40,208 nucleotides of DNA from a phage: sequence record QB023162.1; one strand, written 5' to 3'. The notes under the pieces were generated by a model. That model was not told the origin of the DNA. It did not search any database and saw nothing but the letters and a program-made list of their open reading frames with translations. Positions within the stretch are counted from its first letter, which is position 1; each line of letters begins with the position of its first letter. Positions 901 through 29,106 of this stretch are shown piece by piece. The position numbers and the translations under genes are program-made.

Positions 901-929
901 AAAAGGCCCCTAACGGGGCCTTAGTTTTA
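901..929. terminator. bidirectional rho-independent terminator between convergent genes
   Basis: Stem GGCCCC (905..910), loop TAAC, stem GGGGCC (915..920), then TTAGTTTTA; an A-run on the 5' side gives a U-tract for the minus strand. Confidence 0.6.
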
Positions 930-5695: not shown

Positions 5696-5701
5696 ATTCT
5701 G

Positions 5702-6328
5702 TTATCCTCGTTTGCCGTATTTGGCGTTAAGTTTTTGCTGGATTACGTCCGTACCACCGGCCCCGCCAGTAGAATTTTTGTTACCGGAAGCCCCGCCGCC
5801 GGTTGCTGCATCTGCTTTAATCAGATGCGAAAATGCTTTGTGCTCACGCAGATACTTTTTAAATTGCTCTGCGTCGGTGGTGATGACATTACCGTCCGCA
5901 CCTGTGAACTTGGTCACAACGTCATCGCCGTCAAATTCGGTCTTTACCATCATAGCGATGATATCTGCTGCGCTCTCATCAATCAACATGCCAGACAACT
6001 GGCTGATAACTGATTTACGTTCTGCGCCGAGGATACGCTCAGCCATTTTGCTAATCTTACCGTCTTTCTCGGCGAGTACTGGCTCATACTGACTGCGCAA
6101 CGTTTTCTCGAATGCCTCAAGTTCGCCGTTCTGTTTTGCGCGTTCCTGTTCGGCTTTCAGCTTCGCATCTGCGGCTTCTTTCGCAGCAGCGGCGGCAGCT
6201 TTCTTTTCAGACAAGAGTTTCTCGTTGTTAGCTTTAAGACCGGATACCAGCTCGTCAACTTCTTCTTTGGTAAACGTGGTCTTAGTCTCTTGTTGTTCGA
6301 TAGTTTCGTCTTTCACTTCTTCGCTCAT
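5702..6328 (-). CDS. scaffolding protein (208 aa from ATG 6328; table start is TTG 6379)
   Basis: Ala/Lys/Glu-rich coiled-coil composition; position between spanins and capsid gene; SD AGGGGA 6 nt before ATG 6328. Confidence 0.55.
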   Translation of the reverse strand: MSEEVKDETIEQQETKTTFTKEEVDELVSGLKANNEKLLSEKKAAAAAAKEAADAKLKAEQERAKQNGELEAFEKTLRSQYEPVLAEKDGKISKMAERILGAERKSVISQLSGMLIDESAADIIAMMVKTEFDGDDVVTKFTGADGNVITTDAEQFKKYLREHKAFSHLIKADAATGGGASGNKNSTGGAGGTDVIQQKLNAKYGKRG

Positions 6329-6407
6329 CAGTATGTCCCCTGGACGTTGGAATCCGGGCCACCCGGATTTACATGTCAAGAATAAATTATTCCAACATGC
6401 AAGGCAA

Positions 6408-6671
6408 CTATTCCAGAATATTCCTCACGTAATCCTGCAACATGAACACTTTCAGACGCAGTTTCCGTACACATTCAGCGTTCTGAACGTCGATAGCTAA
6501 ATCCTCGTCCGCGTCGCTACTTGGCGCGGCCAGTTTGCACGGTGGCTGCATCATCATCGTATCCGGGGATGGAATTGGCGTTTGCGACGGCGCGGGACTT
6601 AAGCTGCACGCGCTCAGGGTCAAAAGTGCACACGCTGCGACCAGGCGTTTTAATGTACTTAACGACTTCAC
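6408..6671 (-). CDS. Rz1: o-spanin (Rz1-like outer-membrane lipoprotein), GTG start
   Basis: Signal peptide with lipobox LTLSAC, then a Pro-rich segment (SPAPSQTPIPSP). Starts inside Rz in another frame and extends past its stop. SD CAGAGG before GTG 6671. Confidence 0.7.
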   Translation of the reverse strand: MKSLSTLKRLVAACALLTLSACSLSPAPSQTPIPSPDTMMMQPPCKLAAPSSDADEDLAIDVQNAECVRKLRLKVFMLQDYVRNILE

Positions 6672-6903
6672 GTGTAATTACCTCTGATTTCGTCTTGCCT
6701 TCGTTATCAGCGGCTGCGGCCTTCGACTCATCCTGCTGCTGCCGTTGTGTTTTCTTCGCTAACTCAGCCTGTGCTTTCTGCTGTTGCTGTGAAACGAGAT
6801 TACCCCGACCTTCGTTCCAGCCGCTGCGATACTGGTAGATGCCGTGTGCGTAGGCCAGGACTATGAAACATGCCCCCGCTACGACAGTTGCTTTAAGATT
6901 CAT
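6517..6903 (-). CDS. Rz: i-spanin (Rz-like)
   Basis: N-terminal transmembrane segment followed by a charged, Gln-rich coiled-coil periplasmic domain; SD GAAAGGGG before ATG 6903; overlaps Rz1. Confidence 0.7.
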   Translation of the reverse strand: MNLKATVVAGACFIVLAYAHGIYQYRSGWNEGRGNLVSQQQQKAQAELAKKTQRQQQDESKAAAADNEGKTKSEVITREVVKYIKTPGRSVCTFDPERVQLKSRAVANANSIPGYDDDAATVQTGRAK

Positions 6904-6927
6904 GTTTCCCCTTTCTCGATAAGTAAA

Positions 6928-6947
6928 GCCCCGCCTTAAAGCGGGGC
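6928..6947 (-). promoter_or_regulatory. GC stem-loop about 25 nt upstream of the Rz start
   Basis: GCCCCGC-cttaaa-GCGGGGC inverted repeat; on the minus strand it is followed by TTTACTT, so it is at most a weak terminator and possibly a 5' mRNA hairpin. Confidence 0.3.
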
Positions 6948-7223
6948 GCTAGTCCTTATCATTTAAACATAGAAACGGCGTAATCTCAGTAAACCCGTTA
7001 CTTTTTACACAAGCAATAGAGTACAGCCCTTCCGAACGCGTCAGCGTAACTACACTCGGACTTAACGTCCGGCTCCGTTACCTGCCCGCGCCGCGGTCGC
7101 TTGTTCATACTTCACAAGCTCAGGTGGAGCTTATCATATTTTTAGTGAAAAGTCAACTATTCGAATAGTGTATTCCAACATTTACAATTGAGTGGAATAA
7201 CTGGAATAATCACAGGCACTAAA

Positions 7224-7241
7224 AAGCCCCTTTCGGGGCTT
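7224..7241 (-). terminator. rho-independent terminator after the 153-aa gene
   Basis: AAGCCCC-tttc-GGGGCTT stem-loop directly after stop 7246..7248; U-tract TTTAGTG on the minus strand. Confidence 0.55.
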
Positions 7242-7245
7242 CAGT

Positions 7246-7707
7246 TTATTCTGGCTTAGTTACCTTCGCCGCTTTACTGACAGCCTCTACACCCTCGGCA
7301 TCGGTGACTTTAACGAAGTATCCACCTACCGCATTAACCGTCAGAGACAAAGCCTCTTCCGGGGCGTTTACCACTTCCTTACCGTCTTTGTACCAGGTCA
7401 GAGCATACGGCGCTTTGCCCGCCTTAACTTCGACAGCGATAGTTGCGCTGCCGTCTACCAGTTCAGCGTCCTGCGGTTGCACCGAGAAATACACATCGCC
7501 AGCATCAGCCAGATACGGAATTTCATAAAGCATGCCCGCCGCGGGTAACGCAATACCGGTTTTATCTGCAAACGGCATATCGTCTACGGGTGTACCGAGT
7601 ACACTTTCATCATCAATAAACACCACGTTCTCACCAGAGCCAGACACGCGGGCGTACTTGACTACGCGACGTGAAGGTACATCAGTTACTTTGAAAAAGC
7701 CCATCAT
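7246..7707 (-). CDS. hypothetical head-module protein (153 aa)
   Basis: ORF table; start overlaps the stop of the head morphogenesis gene; SD AGGGGA before the ATG pair at 7707/7704. Confidence 0.4.
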   Translation of the reverse strand: MMGFFKVTDVPSRRVVKYARVSGSGENVVFIDDESVLGTPVDDMPFADKTGIALPAAGMLYEIPYLADAGDVYFSVQPQDAELVDGSATIAVEVKAGKAPYALTWYKDGKEVVNAPEEALSLTVNAVGGYFVKVTDAEGVEAVSKAAKVTKPE

Positions 7708-8750
7708 TAATCCCCTTTCAGATAATCAGCAACACGTTTATCGAGTTCCGCCATCTGCTTAAGCGTGAGCGGATTCCCGAAACCATCTACAGATATTACG
7801 CGAAACTCTTCCGGCGATATACCGCTGTTACGGAAAATCTTACCTCGCACCGGGCCGAGCGCCTGGTCCTGAAACCACGCCGGTTGTTGTTTAAGGAACT
7901 CGTAGTAAGTGGTGTCTGCGCTTACCTGAGTGCCACCCTCCGCGCCTTTAGCCGCGCGTTTTGCGCCTTTATCGAGGAAGTCGAACTCGGAACTTATTAC
8001 GGGTGCGGTGGTACTTCGACAGTTCGGATGGGCGGGGGGCATCGGCCCTTTACCAATTTCCCACGTCATCCCATCCCTGGCTCTGCAAATTGTACTGGTA
8101 CGGCTGTCCAGCGTTGCCACCCATTCGTACTTCTCGATGATGTCGTCGTTCTGGCGGTACGTCTCATTACGCGCTTCGTTGGACACGTGGGACAGCGCGG
8201 TACGGATTACCGTAGCGGCGTATTTCTCTGATATGTCAGCCAACCCACCTTTACCGGCCACTTCTGTAACAATCTGCCGTGTTGTCTTACCCTGAACAAA
8301 GCCCATCTTAACGCCAGTCACGAGGCGCGCGACTTCGGTTTCGCCCCAACCTGACATCAGCTTAGTGAAGTCAACTGGCTTGTCGCTCAACGATAACGGT
8401 TGAAACTCGGCCGCGGCCCACACCTGTTCGGCGGTAGGAGTAACGAATTCCGCGTCTACGTTGGCTGTCAGGGTCTTCGCATTCCACTCAGCCTCATACG
8501 CCGCCAGTTCCTTAAGGTCTTCGGTCAGCTTTGTCCGCCAGTCACCAGTAAGCCCCGTCAGAGCTTCTTCAAGGTCACGTAACAGTTTATTCAGCCGTGC
8601 GGTGCTGCGGCCGTCGTCGCCGAATAGCAGCACCTGCCGTTTGATTTCGTCCCGCATTTCCTGAATGAATGGTGCGAGGTCTTTTACTTCACCGGATGCG
8701 GCGCGTTGCAGCCAAATCTGGTGGCTGATTAGTGATGTCAGTAAGCTCAT
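7707..8750 (-). CDS. head morphogenesis protein, SPP1 gp7/Mu F-like (start re-assigned to ATG 8750; table start is TTG 8807)
   Basis: About 347 aa, in the usual position next after the portal gene; SD AGGAGG 4 nt upstream of ATG 8750. Confidence 0.55.
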   Translation of the reverse strand: MSLLTSLISHQIWLQRAASGEVKDLAPFIQEMRDEIKRQVLLFGDDGRSTARLNKLLRDLEEALTGLTGDWRTKLTEDLKELAAYEAEWNAKTLTANVDAEFVTPTAEQVWAAAEFQPLSLSDKPVDFTKLMSGWGETEVARLVTGVKMGFVQGKTTRQIVTEVAGKGGLADISEKYAATVIRTALSHVSNEARNETYRQNDDIIEKYEWVATLDSRTSTICRARDGMTWEIGKGPMPPAHPNCRSTTAPVISSEFDFLDKGAKRAAKGAEGGTQVSADTTYYEFLKQQPAWFQDQALGPVRGKIFRNSGISPEEFRVISVDGFGNPLTLKQMAELDKRVADYLKGD

Positions 8751-8793
8751 ATGCCCTCCTGTGGTATCGCCAGTGTAACGCATAAAAATAATA

Positions 8794-8826
8794 TTTGCAG
8801 ACACCAATATAATAGGGTACTATTCA
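8794..8826 (+). promoter_or_regulatory. class A promoter with operator copy O1
   Basis: TTTGCA (8794..8799), then TATAAT (8808..8813) fused to palindrome ATAATAG-GGTA-CTATTCA (8809..8826); 38 nt upstream of ATG 8852. Confidence 0.5.
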
Positions 8827-8851
8827 GTTAACTTAAACAGGAGGCTGAAAA

Positions 8852-9055
8852 ATGTATGCAATTTGCGAAGTAGTTCCAGAGTTCGATGAAGAGTTCGACG
8901 GCGACCTGTACCGGGTTAAAAAGGTTCTTCAGGTTTTCCCTGACGTAAACTCTGCTGATAGAGCACTATACGTGTTTGACCCCGCAAGATACGGGGACTA
9001 CGACACTGTTCTGAGGGTTGTCCATGAGGATTACATAAACACAAGATTCCGTTGA
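8852..9055 (+). CDS. small acidic hypothetical protein (67 aa), antisense moron inside the late operon
   Basis: Own promoter and operator, SD CAGGAGG, and its own terminator; opposite strand to the flanking portal and head genes. Confidence 0.5.
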   Translation: MYAICEVVPEFDEEFDGDLYRVKKVLQVFPDVNSADRALYVFDPARYGDYDTVLRVVHEDYINTRFR

Positions 9056-9060
9056 AAACT

Positions 9061-9087
9061 AAGGCCCCAAACGGGGCCTTTTTCTTT
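9061..9087. terminator. bidirectional terminator
   Basis: AAGGCCCC-aaac-GGGGCCTT stem-loop with TTTTCTTT on plus and a U-rich tract on minus; lies between the moron stop and the portal stop. Confidence 0.6.
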
Positions 9088-10567
9088 ACCCCTGTTGCTG
9101 CGCCGACTGTGGAATTTCTCCCGCCACCTGAGCAACAGCACCCAACGGCAGCGGTGCATCCTCGATAGCGTTCTGAATGTCCTCGTCTGTCCAGTCAGTT
9201 ACCCCCGCTTTACGCAACGCAGCATAATAAGCGGTGGCTGGCAGCAAGCCGGCGTTAATGTCCGCCATCCACTGAGCGCGGTCCTGAGCTGTCATAGGTT
9301 GCAGGAAGAACTCCATATTCAGCTTGAACTCGATTTCAGTACCGTCACTAAGCCCCAGCATCGCTGCTACCCAGCGCAGCGCATCGGTATACGCCATGCT
9401 TACGTTGCGCGCTATTGTAGCCATAACGGACGTGTCAGCGCCGCGTTGCAGGCGGGCCGATTCTGCGGTGATTTGCTGCGTCGGGGTGATAAGCTGCGCG
9501 CCAATCTGGATGGCCTGATTCTCTTTATCCAGCATATTCTGTTTGGCGAGGTTGTTCTCCCCTGCCTGAACCAGAAACGCATTGCCGCCGTACCCGATGT
9601 TATGGCCAGAACGTGACCCCATACGCACTCCGTGCGGGTTGGCTTCTTTCCATTGCTCCATGCTCATGTTCTCACCAGGGGAGATGAACAGAGTCGGTTG
9701 GCCTACAACGAAGCTGGACTCCTCATTGTCCGCGCTGTTACGGAAGTGCCCGATATTAAGTTCAGCCAACGGCAACAAAGGGGCGTCGTCAGGGGTTGAG
9801 TCGTTATTCCCCGCGCCAATAAATGTGAAAGGAATCACCCCTACAGGAATATTACCGAGTTTCGGGAAGATTTCGATATAGCCACCTTCCATCAGTGCAC
9901 CTTTCTGGTTAAAGCGGTACAGACGCTGGCGATACTGGCCTTCGAAAATATCAAGAACGCGGTATTGCTCGCCGTAGTTGGGGCTGAACTCATCCGTGCC
10001 ATCGGTGTACTCGTATTCCTCACGCAATACAACCATAACCACACGATTAACAGACCCGACGCGCTGGATACGCCAGTTGATGATGTTCTCTGCGGTGTAG
10101 AAAGCGATTGTCGGGTTTAGTAAACCCTCGTTTTGCTCCGCCATAGTAGCGACGTCTACCGCGGGTGCATCTACAAGCAAGCCGCCGCGACCAACAGCAT
10201 CAATCTCATACAGAGTATCCTGTGCGTGCTGCCACAGGCCAACGCCCGACCCGTCACAGTTAGTGGTCAGGTATTCCATCTGAGACGGAATAATCATCTC
10301 GGGGTCTTTGCGCATTACGCTGCCGACCATGCCTGAAAGCGTTCGCTTGGTGAAGTTGTAGCAAATTGCCCCCGCTTCGTATTCAGCCTGACGCTGGCGA
10401 CCGTAAACCTGGTCCGGCTCATTCTTACCGACGTCACGTAGATACGATGTCAGGTCACCAGAAAGCGCATGTCGCACCTTCTGCCACTTAGGGAAATACT
10501 CTTCGTACTGGCGGTGGTGGGTTTTAACGTTCTGCCCTTGCCCTGCGTTAATGTTTGCGGAAACCAT
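9086..10567 (-). CDS. portal protein
   Basis: 493 aa immediately downstream of the large terminase; SD AGAGGA before ATG 10567. Confidence 0.8.
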   Translation of the reverse strand: MVSANINAGQGQNVKTHHRQYEEYFPKWQKVRHALSGDLTSYLRDVGKNEPDQVYGRQRQAEYEAGAICYNFTKRTLSGMVGSVMRKDPEMIIPSQMEYLTTNCDGSGVGLWQHAQDTLYEIDAVGRGGLLVDAPAVDVATMAEQNEGLLNPTIAFYTAENIINWRIQRVGSVNRVVMVVLREEYEYTDGTDEFSPNYGEQYRVLDIFEGQYRQRLYRFNQKGALMEGGYIEIFPKLGNIPVGVIPFTFIGAGNNDSTPDDAPLLPLAELNIGHFRNSADNEESSFVVGQPTLFISPGENMSMEQWKEANPHGVRMGSRSGHNIGYGGNAFLVQAGENNLAKQNMLDKENQAIQIGAQLITPTQQITAESARLQRGADTSVMATIARNVSMAYTDALRWVAAMLGLSDGTEIEFKLNMEFFLQPMTAQDRAQWMADINAGLLPATAYYAALRKAGVTDWTDEDIQNAIEDAPLPLGAVAQVAGEIPQSAQQQG

Positions 10568-10578
10568 TTGTTGTCCTC

Positions 10579-11829
10579 TTAAAGTGCGAAAGTCACCGGG
10601 ATGTTGATTACTGGTTTAACCACAGGCATCTCGTAAACTACAGGATAGCCGAGAGCATCCGCCATATGGTCAATGATGCCGTCTTTAGCTGGCTCTCCGT
10701 TATCATCGTATGCCTGCTGCTCCAGCGTCTTCGCTATCTCGGGGCATAAGTGGTCATTAACCCACAGCTTACCTTTTTCCAGCGCAGTATTCACCGCTAA
10801 AACACGGTCTTTAACTGGGGGGTTGGCGGATTTAGCGCGAACATCGAAACCGGCCTGCTGGAGTAACGCAATATCTGAGATTGATGCCGAGTTGGTTTTG
10901 CGGTTCTTGCCGCTGGCATCCGGGTAAACGACGATGCGGTGGCCTTGCGACTTCCACTTCTCAGTAATCACACGCACGGTGTCCGGCGTATCAAACAGAC
11001 CTTTCAGTTCTGATACCGCGTGCCAGCCGTCTTTACGTTGCACATACACGGCGCTGGCGTTCTTAGTAACGTTGAAGTCCTGCCCGATGTATAGCGTGTC
11101 GCCTGGTTGGATTGTCTCTTTGCTGCGGTGCTTGCGACGGTCATACGCATAATACACGCTGCCGGATGTCAGGTTAACGAACTCACCGTTCAGATATGCG
11201 TTAGTCAGTTGCGCAGGGTAAGTCTCTGTCAGTGAGCTAATGTAATCCGGCGGCAGGAACCGCGCATTCTCGTGAGAGGACGCCTGCACCATCGAGTAAC
11301 TTGGCGTCGGATTCTCTTTGAACTTGGCGTAAACGAACTTGAACCCTTCCGGCGTCGTGGTGACAGAGATGTGGTTAGTTACGCCCGGGATAACCAGACG
11401 CATACGGGCCACAATTTTGTTCCACGCCAGCTCGGCTTTCTCACGGCTCAATACGTCCAGTTCATCCACGACCGCGGCGGCGATTTTGAAACCCACAATC
11501 GAACCGGGGTTATCCATCGAACGGCAGATAACGGTCCCGAGCACCGTCTTACCGCGAGTAACCACGACTTCTTTGTCGCCAGATTTAACCAGCACATCGA
11601 GGCCGAGCAGGTTAGCGGCTTCCTCAAATGTCGGGTAGAAGATGTCACGGATAGCCGGGTATGTCGGGCCGAAGTAACCCAGGCGCGTACCTGGATGCTT
11701 GAGCATAAACGTAAGCAGGTCCAGACAGCCGACGAAGGTCTTACCGCTGCCAAAGCCTCCGACATATGCCTTATATTTGTTATCACAATTTAGGAACAGT
11801 GCCTGCGGGGCAGATAACTGAATACTCAT
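10579..11829 (-). CDS. terL: terminase large subunit
   Basis: Walker A GGFGSGKT near the N-terminus, C-terminal nuclease-type acidic residues, 416 aa; ATGA overlap with the upstream gene. Confidence 0.9.
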   Translation of the reverse strand: MSIQLSAPQALFLNCDNKYKAYVGGFGSGKTFVGCLDLLTFMLKHPGTRLGYFGPTYPAIRDIFYPTFEEAANLLGLDVLVKSGDKEVVVTRGKTVLGTVICRSMDNPGSIVGFKIAAAVVDELDVLSREKAELAWNKIVARMRLVIPGVTNHISVTTTPEGFKFVYAKFKENPTPSYSMVQASSHENARFLPPDYISSLTETYPAQLTNAYLNGEFVNLTSGSVYYAYDRRKHRSKETIQPGDTLYIGQDFNVTKNASAVYVQRKDGWHAVSELKGLFDTPDTVRVITEKWKSQGHRIVVYPDASGKNRKTNSASISDIALLQQAGFDVRAKSANPPVKDRVLAVNTALEKGKLWVNDHLCPEIAKTLEQQAYDDNGEPAKDGIIDHMADALGYPVVYEMPVVKPVINIPVTFAL

Positions 11830-16824: not shown

Positions 16825-16995
16825 TTATTGGTGTTTTAAAGATAATCGTTCACCTCTAATCCAGTAGTACCTCGGGCGTCGCGCCCACTGACGCCATCGC
16901 ATAACACGGTACTTGTTGCCGTCTGACGCAACAATAAGCCCGAATCGCTTTTCTCCGTTTCTACCGGTCCAGGTTACGATGTCATTCAGTTTCAT
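16825..16995 (-). CDS. unlisted 56-aa ORF
   Basis: ATG 16995 with SD AGGAG; open frame to TAA at 16825..16827. Confidence 0.35.
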   Translation of the reverse strand: MKLNDIVTWTGRNGEKRFGLIVASDGNKYRVMRWRQWARRPRYYWIRGERLSLKHQ

Positions 16996-17065
16996 TGTTG
17001 CATCTCCTGCAATAGTCGCTTCGATTGTTGCGTTTGGTGAAATAGAACAAAAATGAGAAAAATGA

Positions 17066-17087
17066 TACGCTGCTGTGTAGCAGCGTA
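17066..17087 (-). terminator. rho-independent terminator within the leftward early block
   Basis: 9-bp stem TACGCTGCT/AGCAGCGTA with loop GTGT; on the minus strand it is followed by TCATTTTTCTCATTTTTG. Confidence 0.55.
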
Positions 17088-17098
17088 AGTCACAAAGC

Positions 17099-17116
17099 CA
17101 AATAGTAACCTATTGG
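17099..17116. promoter_or_regulatory. degenerate operator copy O3
   Basis: CAAATAG-TAAC-CTATTGG keeps the AATAG-N4-CTATT core but no usable -10; overlaps the stop of ORF 17110..17259. Confidence 0.3.
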
Positions 17117-21093: not shown

Positions 21094-21112
21094 AAGGGGC
21101 GTTAAGCCCCTT
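21094..21112. terminator. bidirectional stem-loop between convergent primase/helicase and the XRE gene
   Basis: AAGGGGC-gttaa-GCCCCTT; the minus strand has TTCTTTTTACC downstream; includes the XRE stop codon. Confidence 0.5.
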
Positions 21113-21317
21113 CACCGAATGCCAGCCACTTGGCGTCTACTTGCAGCACTTCCGCCAGTTTAAACAGCGTCGCCGGGCGGACGTCTTGGGTTACCCCAAG
21201 TGCCAGCTGGTTAATTGCGCCCTGGGAAACCCCGGTCAGCACCGCCAGACGGCGCTGGGAGATGCCGAGTTCTTTACGGCGCTGTTCTACACGGATGCCT
21301 AGTTCAGATGGTTGCAT
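21102..21317 (-). CDS. XRE-family (Cro/CI-type) HTH transcriptional regulator, candidate operator-binding repressor
   Basis: 71 aa; segment ISQRRLAVLTGVSQGAINQL is a classic HTH_3 motif; SD AAGGAG; its own promoter carries operator O5. Confidence 0.75.
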   Translation of the reverse strand: MQPSELGIRVEQRRKELGISQRRLAVLTGVSQGAINQLALGVTQDVRPATLFKLAEVLQVDAKWLAFGEGA

Positions 21318-23721: not shown

Positions 23722-23750
23722 TTGACACCTGAATAGTTAGCTATTATAGT
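23722..23750 (+). promoter_or_regulatory. class B promoter PB2 with operator O7
   Basis: TTGACA (23722..23727), 17 nt containing TGAATAG-TTAG-CTATTAT (23730..23747), TATAGT (23745..23750). Confidence 0.65.
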
Positions 23751-24450: not shown

Positions 24451-24476
24451 AAGGCCCTTCATTGGGCCTTTTTACT
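24451..24476 (+). terminator. rho-independent terminator/attenuator between the SSB-like gene and DNA polymerase
   Basis: AAGGCCC-ttcatt-GGGCCTT followed by TTTTT; the polymerase SD and ATG follow within 20 nt with no intervening promoter. Confidence 0.55.
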
Positions 24477-29080: not shown

Positions 29081-29106
29081 AAGGCCCCGTTTGGGGCCTT
29101 ATTTTT
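29081..29106. terminator. bidirectional terminator between the replication module and the tailspike gene
   Basis: AAGGCCCC-gttt-GGGGCCTT followed by ATTTTT; a U-rich tract is also present for the minus strand. Confidence 0.6.

What the first reader, a model, noticed from the sequence alone, without database searches (positions are those of the whole stretch)
8751..9087. Antisense moron inserted between portal and head-morphogenesis genes
A 67-aa acidic protein gene (8852..9055) with its own class A promoter and operator, a strong SD and a bidirectional terminator lies on the opposite strand inside the late operon. The terminator at 9061..9087 would also stop leftward late transcription after the portal gene, so the head-morphogenesis gene needs re-initiation within the 100-bp divergent gap. 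A fully equipped antisense cassette at this position is typical of acquired accessory functions.
Basis: partly seen in the sequence, partly recalled or inferred. Interest (0 to 1): 0.45.

Follow-up and report, generated by a model that had tools for sequence, protein, structure and literature searches.

The report
Swappable early-gene cassette in head operon
A small gene of unknown function, with its own promoter and terminator, sits backwards between two head-assembly genes of an E. coli phage; related phages carry the same cassette in a different slot or other genes in this slot, so it is an ordinary exchangeable accessory gene ("moron").

Summary
Window 8852..9055 (+) encodes a real 67-aa acidic protein (pI 4.5, dN/dS 0.04-0.31, AlphaFold pLDDT 91.6). 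It has a strong SD, a promoter/operator motif found 8 times in the window, and a GC-rich terminator hairpin. It lies antisense between the portal and Mu-F-type head-morphogenesis genes of a Kagunavirus-like phage.

Relatives show that this junction is a polymorphic slot. It is empty in K1H-type phages and holds unrelated cargo in others: a beta-clamp-like protein, a KilA-N protein, and 64-94-aa unknowns. All sit behind the same promoter-leader and in front of the same terminator.

The same cassette, 97-99% identical in DNA, sits in a second slot after the Hoc-like gene in other phages. That second slot is empty in this window. Distant homologues lie in early and replication operons.

So the "moron" reading is supported. 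More precisely, this is a cassette bracketed by a promoter-leader and a terminator and exchanged by recombination, much like the PeSL cassettes of T4-type phages.

The protein's function is unknown: it has no Pfam family, no named homologue and no fold match. My best guess is an early-expressed binder of a host or defence protein. The claim that head-morphogenesis transcription must re-initiate in the gap is untested, and empty sites also carry a late-direction hairpin. This is a new member of a known kind, of modest interest.

The parts
7707..8750 (-). Head-morphogenesis gene (Mu F / SPP1 gp7 family, 347 aa); left neighbour of the slot
   Evidence: ORF list. Pfam PF04233, E=1.1e-13. The start at ATG 8750 is homologous to the start in relatives.
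8752..8785 (.). Site-A-specific flank, holding the SD of the head-morphogenesis gene on the - strand (CCCTCC 8754-8759)
   Evidence: 97% identical to site-A cassettes with other cargo (EF2-1, K-02) and unrelated to site-B copies.
8794..8823 (+). Class-A early-type promoter: -35-like TTTGCA/TTGCAG, -10-like TACTAT 8818-8823 (alternative TATAAT 8808-8813)
   Evidence: Motif family occurs 8 times against 0.15 expected. Alignment of the copies. Constant 27-33 nt distance to an SD plus start codon at 5 of 8 copies. 100% conserved before unrelated cargo genes. Activity is not shown.
8811..8824 (.). Operator-like palindrome AATAG-GGTA-CTATT overlapping the -10 region
   Evidence: 8 exact AATAG-N4-CTATT copies against 0.08 expected. 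Two tandem copies lie upstream of the 71-aa HTH gene 21105..21317(-). Binding is inferred.
8825..8851 (+). Conserved leader with SD AGGAGG (8839-8844)
   Evidence: 93-100% identical across cassettes whatever the cargo or slot.
8852..9055 (+). ORF67: 67-aa acidic protein, an uncharacterised phage family
   Evidence: conservation. dN/dS 0.04-0.31. AF2 pLDDT 91.6. No Pfam, NCBIfam or PADLOC hit. phrog_27256, unknown function, E=9e-4.
9061..9088 (.). Intrinsic terminator hairpin AAGGCCCC-AAAC-GGGGCCTT plus T tract; probably acts in both directions
   Evidence: Hairpin family occurs 4 times in the window against 0 expected; the copies at 903 and 29081 lie at convergent operon ends. Conserved behind all cargo types.
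9086..10567 (-). Portal gene (DUF4055, 493 aa); right neighbour of the slot
7224..7241 (.). Empty second slot (site B, between the Hoc-like gene and the Rz region): only a hairpin AAGCCCCTTTCGGGGCTT where other phages carry the ORF67 cassette
   Evidence: Window compared with Bas71. Site-B ORF67 copies.
21105..21317 (-). 71-aa XRE/Cro-type HTH gene behind two class-A motifs; candidate regulator that binds the palindrome
   Evidence: phrog_4/phrog_8 repressor-like, E about 1e-10. DicA-like NCBIfam hit, below the family cut-off. The link to the operator is an inference.

Best explanation
Window 8790..9083 is a self-contained, exchangeable early-gene cassette (a 'moron' in the structural sense). 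It occupies one of two polymorphic slots that flank the head-morphogenesis/Hoc-like gene pair in the late head operon of Guernseyvirinae phages.

Shown:
- The unit is promoter-leader, one ORF, then terminator.
- The ORF codes for a real, folded, selected 67-aa acidic protein.
- The promoter-leader and the terminator are shared at 93-100% identity by cassettes with unrelated cargo.
- The same ORF67 cassette, at 97-99% nucleotide identity, lies in the other slot in other phages.
- Homology ends inside the -35 region on the left and just after the terminator stem on the right.

Inferred:
- Cargo is swapped by homologous recombination between co-infecting phages, using the roughly 70-nt promoter-leader and the roughly 30-nt terminator as homology arms.
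- The promoter is a host sigma-70 early promoter. Its palindrome AATAG-N4-CTATT is an operator for the phage's 71-aa HTH protein. ORF67 would then be made early, together with the other class-A-driven genes, and shut off before late transcription crosses the locus.
- The terminator keeps antisense transcription out of the portal gene.

Least certain (about 0.35): ORF67 is a non-enzymatic binder that neutralises a host or defence protein early in infection. It is dispensable and patchily distributed, it is co-transcribed with DNA polymerase and helicase in some relatives, and it shares its slot type with a Dam methyltransferase.
For: Anatomy.

Slot polymorphism:
- Empty junction in K1H.
- Spans of about 845 bp against 1061-1661 bp across relatives.
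- Cargo in the slot: 94-aa phrog_1273, 173-aa clamp-like protein, 217-aa KilA-N protein, 64-aa phrog_16707, 93-aa unknown.

Mosaic, segment by segment:
- Flank, promoter and leader are 93-100% identical to EF2-1 and K-02, whereas the ORF region shows only 6-7% identity there.
- The ORF is 87-90% identical to the site-B copies of SHAK7858 and Bas71.
- The exact protein is on 9 public contigs: site A in 4 of the 6 places shown and site B in 2. Those site-B copies have 97-99% ORF and 100% leader nucleotide identity with unrelated flanks.
- The window's own site B is empty.

Promoter family. It drives the HTH gene and other small genes. In the Kagunavirus K1B4 RNA-seq study, an HTH gene is one of only 4 early genes (PMC12645636).

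Same promoter-leader before other genes: a Dam methyltransferase in Salmonella phage S100.

Terminator family at convergent operon ends.

Coding reality: dN/dS and AF2.

Early or replication context of distant homologues:
- Between DNA polymerase A and a nuclease plus SNF2 helicase.
- Early gene arrays.

GC content: ORF 46% and cassette 43%, against 54% in both flanking genes.
Against: - There are no transcription data for this locus.
- The promoter scores only 8 of 12 against the sigma-70 consensus and was missed by the scan.
- Which of the two -10-like hexamers is used is unknown.
- Whether empty sites are ancestral or are deletions is unresolved.
- No recombination intermediate was seen.
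- For the function there is no positive evidence at all:
  - No named homologue in 53 clusters.
- BASEL phages Bas70-76 all carry ORF67 yet are described as highly sensitive to restriction-modification systems (PMC11990801). A broad anti-restriction role is therefore unlikely.
Confidence: 0.7

Rival explanations
1. ORF67 is functionally tied to head assembly, for example as a regulator or partner of the Mu-F-type protein or the portal. That would explain why it keeps turning up next to those genes.
For: It lies beside Mu-F and/or portal genes in several lineages:
- The window.
- Salmonella Jerseyvirus VSt10.
- Klebsiella Jedunavirus Geezett and contig L032, between Mu F and a portal with no sequence similarity to the window's.
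- Contig L030, directly after Mu F.
- Site B, which is one gene away from Mu F.
Against: - It is absent from many closely related, viable phages.
- It is on the opposite strand, behind an early-type promoter.
- Other family members lie in replication operons or early arrays far from head genes.
- The same slots hold unrelated cargo.
- In Jedunavirus-like genomes almost every head-gene junction carries antisense genes, so adjacency to Mu F is expected by chance.
Confidence: 0.07
2. ORF67 is a DNA-mimic or anti-restriction type inhibitor, of the Ocr, ArdA or gp5.9 kind. It would block host nucleases or restriction enzymes.
For: - Small and acidic: pI 4.47, 14 Asp/Glu in 67 aa.
- Early-type promoter.
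- The slot type is shared with a Dam methyltransferase, which is an anti-restriction function.
- Some homologues lie directly after DNA polymerase A and before a nuclease gene. From memory, T7 gene 5.9 has a similar position.
Against: - Bas70-76 carry ORF67 but remain highly sensitive to restriction-modification systems.
- No structural similarity to any solved DNA mimic or other inhibitor.
- The net charge of -6 is modest for a DNA mimic.
Confidence: 0.08
3. It is a classical lysogenic-conversion or superinfection-exclusion moron that benefits the host cell, like HK97 gp15.
For: It has the same architecture as lambdoid morons: a gene with its own promoter and terminator inside a late structural operon, with lower GC than its flanks (definition in PMC3594210).
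Against: - Kagunaviruses are reported as lytic phages (PMC11990801, and the titles listed), so there is no prophage state to express it from.
- By inspection of the sequence, the protein has no long hydrophobic stretch or signal-peptide-like N-terminus, and it is predicted to be a compact soluble alpha/beta domain. Known exclusion proteins of this kind are membrane proteins (from memory).
Confidence: 0.05
4. The ORF is a chance reading frame. On this view the real function of the gap is purely regulatory: a divergent promoter region plus a terminator between late genes.
For: The regulatory elements are more conserved than the cargo. Empty sites still keep a hairpin.
Against: - Full-length conservation down to 33% identity in 53 clusters.
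- dN/dS of 0.04-0.31.
- A confident AF2 fold.
- A strong SD at the right distance.
Confidence: 0.02

Closest known systems
Morons of lambdoid phages (for example HK97 gene 15; Cumby, Davidson and Maxwell 2012, PMC3594210)
   Same: - One extra gene between two genes of a late structural operon.
- Present in some close relatives and absent from others.
- Its own promoter and terminator.
- GC content below that of its neighbours (46% against 54%).
   Different: - The host phage is virulent, so there is no expression from a repressed prophage and no benefit to a lysogen.
- The promoter is one of the phage's own early-class promoters with a shared operator, not a foreign one.
- The slot is an old, shared feature with many alternative occupants.
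PeSL (promoter-early stem-loop) cassettes of T4-type phages (Arbiol et al. 2010, PMC2839356; Comeau et al. 2014, PMC4122927)
   Same: - Conserved sigma-70-like early promoters and stem-loop terminators are repeated in the genome and bracket small non-essential genes.
- Mosaic breakpoints between relatives fall at these motifs.
- Gene gain, loss and replacement go by recombination between the motifs.
   Different: - Different sequences and a different phage group (small siphoviruses).
- Promoter and terminator sit at opposite ends of the gene rather than forming one composite motif.
- Only two slots, inside the head operon and antisense to it, rather than large hyperplastic regions.
- The promoter carries an operator-like palindrome.
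- Mini-circles were not examined.
Annotated antisense gene gp05 ('amidase') with its own promoter between the portal and head-morphogenesis genes of Salmonella phage Jersey (NC_021777)
   Same: The same junction, orientation, terminator position and leader end (ACATTTAAACAGGAG) in the type species of the sister genus.
   Different: - Different cargo: a 217-aa KilA-N-like protein.
- A different promoter, TTGACA-N16-TATATA, with a different palindrome.
Small acidic early inhibitors of T7-type phages (Ocr, Gp2, gp5.9), a functional analogy recalled from memory only
   Same: About 50-120 aa, acidic, early, non-enzymatic and dispensable in permissive hosts.
   Different: No sequence or fold similarity, and no target is known.

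Membership tests
Moron (independent transcription unit added to a phage genome) | Present at a junction where closely related genomes have nothing | tested here: met
   K1H and about 28 other records have a gap of roughly 75 nt at this junction; the window has 335 nt.
Moron (independent transcription unit added to a phage genome) | Its own promoter | tested here: inconclusive
   A promoter-like element of a repeated family is present: 8 copies against 0.15 expected, with constant geometry relative to start codons. It scores only 8 of 12 against the sigma-70 consensus, and its activity cannot be tested here.
Moron (independent transcription unit added to a phage genome) | Its own terminator | tested here: met
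   Canonical hairpin plus T tract at 9061-9088, belonging to a hairpin family found at operon ends.
Moron (independent transcription unit added to a phage genome) | Base composition different from the surrounding genes | tested here: met
   ORF 46.1% GC and cassette 43.1%, against 54.5% and 54.3% in the flanking genes. This is only about 1 SD below the window mean (15th percentile of 204-nt windows).
Moron (independent transcription unit added to a phage genome) | Expressed from the repressed prophage, to the benefit of the lysogen | not tested
   The genus is described as lytic. I did not scan the whole window for integrase or repressor genes.
PeSL-type regulatory cassettes | Conserved early promoter and stem-loop motifs repeated in the genome and flanking small non-essential genes | tested here: met
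   Class-A motif 8 times and hairpin family 4 times. Both bracket all cargo types in two slots. The sequences are unrelated to the T4-type PeSLs.
PeSL-type regulatory cassettes | Mosaic breakpoints between relatives coincide with the motifs | tested here: met
   Identity drops from 93-100% to 6-7% at the start codon against cassettes with other cargo. Against the site-B copies it drops from 97-100% to 10-29% just outside the promoter and terminator.
PeSL-type regulatory cassettes | Excised mini-circles formed by recombination between the motifs | not testable with these tools
   This needs PCR or sequencing reads from infected cells.
ORF67 protein family (phrog_27256 and relatives) | Full-length similarity: about 65 aa, CEV...FDG.L..V.K.LQ.F...RVV...FR-COOH | tested here: met
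   phrog_27256, E=9e-4 over residues 2-67. 53 clusters with E of 2e-16 or better. D16, V22, A35, F66 and R67 are invariant.
Known anti-defence proteins and DNA mimics (Ocr, ArdA, Acr, Gad, Tad and others) | Sequence or fold similarity to a characterised member | tested here: not met
   - No Pfam or NCBIfam family.
- PDB sequence profile search: best E=0.06, to a designed protein.
- Foldseek PDB: nothing.
Known anti-defence proteins and DNA mimics (Ocr, ArdA, Acr, Gad, Tad and others) | Protects the phage from a defence system | not testable with these tools
   The only indirect evidence is negative: Bas70-76 carry ORF67 yet are sensitive to restriction-modification systems.

The most novel reading that the evidence does not exclude
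Two linked readings remain open.

First, ORF67 may found a new family of early phage inhibitors, either anti-defence or host take-over, with a fold that has no solved relative.

Second, Guernseyvirinae may have their own PeSL-like exchange system. It would consist of a roughly 70-nt promoter-operator-leader and a roughly 30-nt terminator that let single genes hop among at least three places:
- the two antisense slots flanking the Mu F/Hoc-like gene pair;
- the position between DNA polymerase and helicase.

All of these would be wired to one phage HTH regulator through the AATAG-N4-CTATT palindrome. The slots would then be a ready-made catalogue of accessory and counter-defence genes for this phage group.
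Probability: 0.3. Interest if true: 0.55.

Novelty: new member of a known kind. Interest (0 to 1): 0.3.

Why it matters
Kagunaviruses are small, engineerable phages that target E. coli capsules or O-antigens. They are used in therapy-oriented work and are now in the BASEL collection.

Knowing that the two junctions flanking the head-morphogenesis/Hoc-like genes are natural cargo slots, each with a portable promoter-leader and terminator, has two uses:
1. It marks safe insertion sites and native expression signals for payload genes.
2. It gives a short list of accessory genes to screen for counter-defence or host take-over activity: ORF67, the clamp-like protein, the KilA-N protein and phrog_1273.

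ORF67 is directly testable, because Bas70-76 carry it. In itself the finding is a typical moron or accessory cassette and does not change current views.

Tried and rejected
- Generic sigma-70 scan of 7000-11000: no promoter in the gap on either strand. The promoter claim rests on the repeated motif instead.
- Search for a leftward (late) promoter motif shared between the gap and other parts of the window: 11-mers with up to 1 mismatch gave only scattered chance hits.
- Rfam on 8600-9250: only RAGATH-21 at 23 bits against a gathering score of 70. Rejected.
- Function by homology gave nothing:
  - Pfam, NCBIfam and PADLOC: no hit.
  - PHROGs: only an unknown-function family.
  - PDB sequence profile: nothing meaningful.
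  - 1.8-billion-protein representative search: 22 hits, all about 65-aa unknowns apart from 3 spurious repeat proteins.
  - Profile search of 5.8 billion clusters: 53 hits, none named.
- Function by fold:
  - Foldseek PDB: nothing.
  - BFVD: only family members.
  - The afdb50 library was unavailable.
- Is the gene following ORF67 in Geezett and Kpn2-P2 a conserved partner, or related to the clamp-like cargo? No similarity.
- Is the K-02 94-aa cargo the same as the window's 94-aa replication-operon gene? No.
- A paralogue of ORF67 elsewhere in the window: none.
- Literature:
  - No paper on this gene or on cassettes in Guernseyvirinae was found.
  - The one Kagunavirus RNA-seq paper does not report the class of the site-A gene in its text or in the supplements held.

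Full report
**What the window is.** The region matches Kagunavirus and Jerseyvirus (Guernseyvirinae) siphophages of E. coli and Salmonella at 80-95% identity. On the - strand lie the large terminase (10579..11829), the portal (DUF4055, 9086..10567), the Mu-F/SPP1-gp7 head-morphogenesis gene (7707..8750, true ATG at 8750), a Hoc-like Ig protein (7246..7707), Rz, the scaffold and the major capsid gene. A metagenome contig of 44,134 bp (L034) is 100% identical over everything compared.

**Checking the observation.**
- The ORF at 8852..9055 (+) exists and encodes a 67-aa protein of pI 4.47 and charge -6.4.
- AGGAGG lies at 8839-8844, 7 nt before the ATG.
- The hairpin AAGGCCCC-AAAC-GGGGCCTT (9061-9080) followed by TTTTTCTTT is called as a terminator and folds at about -17 kcal/mol on either strand.
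- The generic sigma-70 scan finds no promoter in the 101-nt gap.
  - ATAATAGGGTACTATT occurs 8 times against 0.15 expected.
  - The exact palindrome AATAG-N4-CTATT occurs 8 times against 0.08 expected.
  - The aligned copies share cTTGCAc-N17-TACTAT.
  - Five of the eight have an SD and start codon 27-33 nt downstream.
- The hairpin belongs to a family of four in the window (0 expected). Two of these sit between convergent operons, and their two tails (TTTTTCTT and AGTTTTATG) resemble the two sides of the cassette's hairpin. 'Bidirectional' is therefore plausible, with the leftward side the weaker.

**The ORF is a gene.**
- tblastn finds it in 33 phage records.
- A profile search finds 53 clusters at 90% identity, all about 65 aa, ending in Phe-Arg, and with D16, V22, A35, F66 and R67 invariant.
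- dN/dS against three relatives is 0.04-0.31.
- AlphaFold2 gives a confident small alpha/beta domain: beta-hairpin, helix, strand, short C-terminal strand; pLDDT 91.6.

**The junction is a polymorphic slot.**
- In K1H, homology to the window stops exactly at the head-morphogenesis ATG and near the portal stop codon. Only about 75 nt with a hairpin lie between them.
- Among records where both flanks were joined, about 28 are empty like this and about 18 carry inserts, with spans of 1061-1661 bp.
- The inserts are always on the + strand and carry unrelated genes:
  - a 94-aa phrog_1273 protein (K-02, EF2-1);
  - a 173-aa beta-clamp-like protein, annotated either 'RusA-like' or 'sliding clamp' (Shashou, SHAK7693);
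  - a 217-aa KilA-N-like protein annotated 'amidase' (EcoPhCCP1, Jersey);
  - a 64-aa phrog_16707 protein plus further ORFs (phiWAO78-1);
  - a 93-aa unknown (M01).
- Phage Jersey, type species of the sister genus, already has an annotated promoter in front of its antisense gene at this junction.

**The brackets are conserved and the cargo is not.** Segment by segment:

| Segment (window coordinates) | vs EF2-1 / K-02 (site A, other cargo) | vs SHAK7858 / Bas71 (site B, ORF67) |
|---|---|---|
| Site-A flank 8752-8785 | 97% | 15% |
| Promoter 8786-8824 | 100% | 79-95% |
| Leader 8825-8851 | 93-96% | 85-96% |
| ORF 8852-9055 | 6-7% | 87-90% |
| Terminator 9056-9085 | 77% | 87-90% |

The same promoter-leader precedes a Dam-type methyltransferase in Salmonella phage S100 and clamp-like genes in many others.

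**The same cassette sits in two slots.**
- In nearly all Kagunaviruses that have ORF67, it lies in a second antisense slot (site B), between the Hoc-like gene and the Rz region.
- That slot is empty in the window, which keeps only a hairpin at 7224-7241.
- The exact window protein is found on 9 public contigs. Of the 6 places shown, 4 are site A and 2 are site B.
- The site-B copies are 97-99% identical in DNA over the ORF and 100% over the leader. Sequence outside about 8790..9083 is unrelated.
- This is direct evidence that the cassette recently moved or was exchanged as a unit, with boundaries in the -35 region and just after the terminator stem.
- Salmonella Jerseyvirus VSt10 has a 58%-identical copy in site A.

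**Other contexts of the family.**
- Copies 58-62% identical lie inside the replication operon of Guernseyvirinae-like contigs. They sit between DNA polymerase A and a nuclease plus SNF2 helicase, are co-directional with them, and have no promoter of their own. The window has small hydrophobic ORFs at that position and no paralogue of ORF67.
- More distant members lie in early small-gene arrays (Shemara, Kpn2-P2, L025 with KilR, L027 after a primase-polymerase).
- Others lie in antisense islands inside structural modules of unrelated phages:
  - Jedunavirus Geezett and L032, between Mu F and a portal with no sequence similarity to the window's;
  - L030, directly after Mu F;
  - L028, with a dUTPase.

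**How it most likely works.**
- Shown: the anatomy, the conservation pattern, and the mobility between slots.
- Inferred: the class-A element is a host-RNA-polymerase early promoter.
  - It also drives a 71-aa XRE/Cro-type HTH gene, which has two tandem copies of the motif.
  - In the one Kagunavirus RNA-seq study, an HTH gene is among only four early genes, while Mu F is 'middle' (PMC12645636).
  - The palindrome over the -10 region is a natural operator for that HTH protein. It would switch the cassette off before late transcription runs through the locus in the opposite direction.
- The terminator ends the transcript 5 nt before the portal stop codon, so no antisense RNA covers the portal gene.
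- Exchange between phages probably goes by homologous recombination in the shared promoter-leader and terminator. This was shown experimentally for the PeSL cassettes of T4-type phages (PMC2839356).

**The protein's function is open.**
- It is dispensable, patchy, early, small and acidic, and it lacks any catalytic motif. It also shares slot types with a methyltransferase and sits in replication operons elsewhere.
- On those grounds I commit, at about 0.35, to a stoichiometric binder of a host or defence protein.
- A broad anti-restriction role is unlikely, because Bas70-76 all carry it and are described as highly sensitive to restriction-modification systems (PMC11990801).

**The re-initiation claim.**
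- The hairpin may well terminate leftward transcripts.
- Empty site A in K1H and empty site B in this window both hold a hairpin followed by a T-rich tail in the late direction. Internal terminator-like hairpins are therefore a standing feature of this late operon, not a consequence of the cassette.
- The gap has no sigma-70 match at 9 of 12 or better and no motif shared with other regions.
- By eye there is a weak leftward match, TTTAAG(8837-8832)-17-TATTAT(8814-8809), at 8 of 12. That is no worse than the rightward promoter, so re-initiation is possible but unproven.

**Verdict.**
- The moron interpretation is supported and sharpened: this is a cassette bracketed by a promoter-leader and a terminator, in one of two exchange slots.
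- The re-initiation inference is untested.
- The finding is a new member of a known kind (moron or PeSL-like accessory cassette) carrying an uncharacterised small protein family.
- Interest is modest, at 0.3.

Noticed in passing
window 8811, 16788, 17101, 17924, 21392, 23732, 27278, 39314 (14-nt palindromes); HTH gene 21105..21317(-): The exact palindrome AATAG-N4-CTATT occurs 8 times against 0.08 expected, mostly over the -10 region of class-A promoters. Two tandem motif copies precede a 71-aa XRE/Cro-type HTH gene, which is the obvious candidate regulator. The copies at 23732 and 27278 lie at gene ends with no start codon downstream.
   Followed up: partly
window 17040..17116 (- strand): A class-A-like motif at 17101-17116 is followed about 15 nt later by the hairpin CGCTGCT-ACAC-AGCAGCG and a T run. 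This lies about 100 nt upstream of the next gene (16825..16995). It could be a short RNA or an attenuator.
   Followed up: no
window 6903..7246 (site B): The second cassette slot is empty here. A sigma-70-like TTTACA-18-AATAAT (7181-7210, 10 of 12) lies just before the hairpin at 7224-7241 with no gene between them. The hairpin reads as a good terminator in the late (-) direction (GGGGCUUUUUAGUG).
   Followed up: partly
window 903-922, 9061-9080, 24451-24470, 29081-29100: A family of near-identical hairpins, AAGGCCCC-N4-GGGGCCTT (4 against 0 expected). The copies at 903 and 29081 sit between convergent operons, so they are probably the phage's standard two-way terminators.
   Followed up: partly
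L038 1592-3451; L017 about 5698-7632; PQ141284 annotation: In some relatives the Mu-F head-morphogenesis gene is interrupted by an intein (619 aa, PF14890 Intein_splicing). The window's copy is uninterrupted (347 aa).
   Followed up: no
L008 752-1273, L007 752-1273, L035 845-1366: A 173-aa cargo gene found in both slots is annotated either 'RusA-like Holliday junction resolvase' or 'DNA polymerase III sliding clamp'. PHROGs matches both kinds of family and Pfam matches none, so its nature is unclear. It is a mobile accessory gene like ORF67.
   Followed up: partly
L009 794-1447; L021 1853-2506: The 'amidase' cargo of site A (EcoPhCCP1, Jersey) matches the KilA-N domain weakly (E=3e-4, below the Pfam cut-off). 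It has its own promoter type, with different long palindromes: AATGGTATAT..ATATACCATT in Jersey and AAATTCTACATTTGAATGTAGAATTT in EcoPhCCP1.
   Followed up: no
L006 2167-5149; L030 and L032: In Klebsiella Jedunavirus-like genomes, ORF67 homologues again lie in antisense gene blocks on either side of the Mu-F gene: between Mu F and the portal in one, after Mu F in another. The portal there has no sequence similarity to the window's. This parallels the two Guernseyvirinae slots and may be coincidence.
   Followed up: partly
L005 826-1365 (VSt10 site B): Site B of Salmonella phage VSt10 holds a 179-aa protein matching the PHROG family 'endonuclease VII' (phrog_1035, E=1.5e-31). It may be a homing-type nuclease, which hints at another route of slot turnover.
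   Followed up: no
records OR594180 and OR594183: Phages SHAK7693 and SHAK7858 are filed in GenBank under Autographiviridae; Kayfunavirus. Their head modules are Kagunavirus-like (82-96% protein identity to the window), so this is probably a taxonomy error in the records.
   Followed up: no
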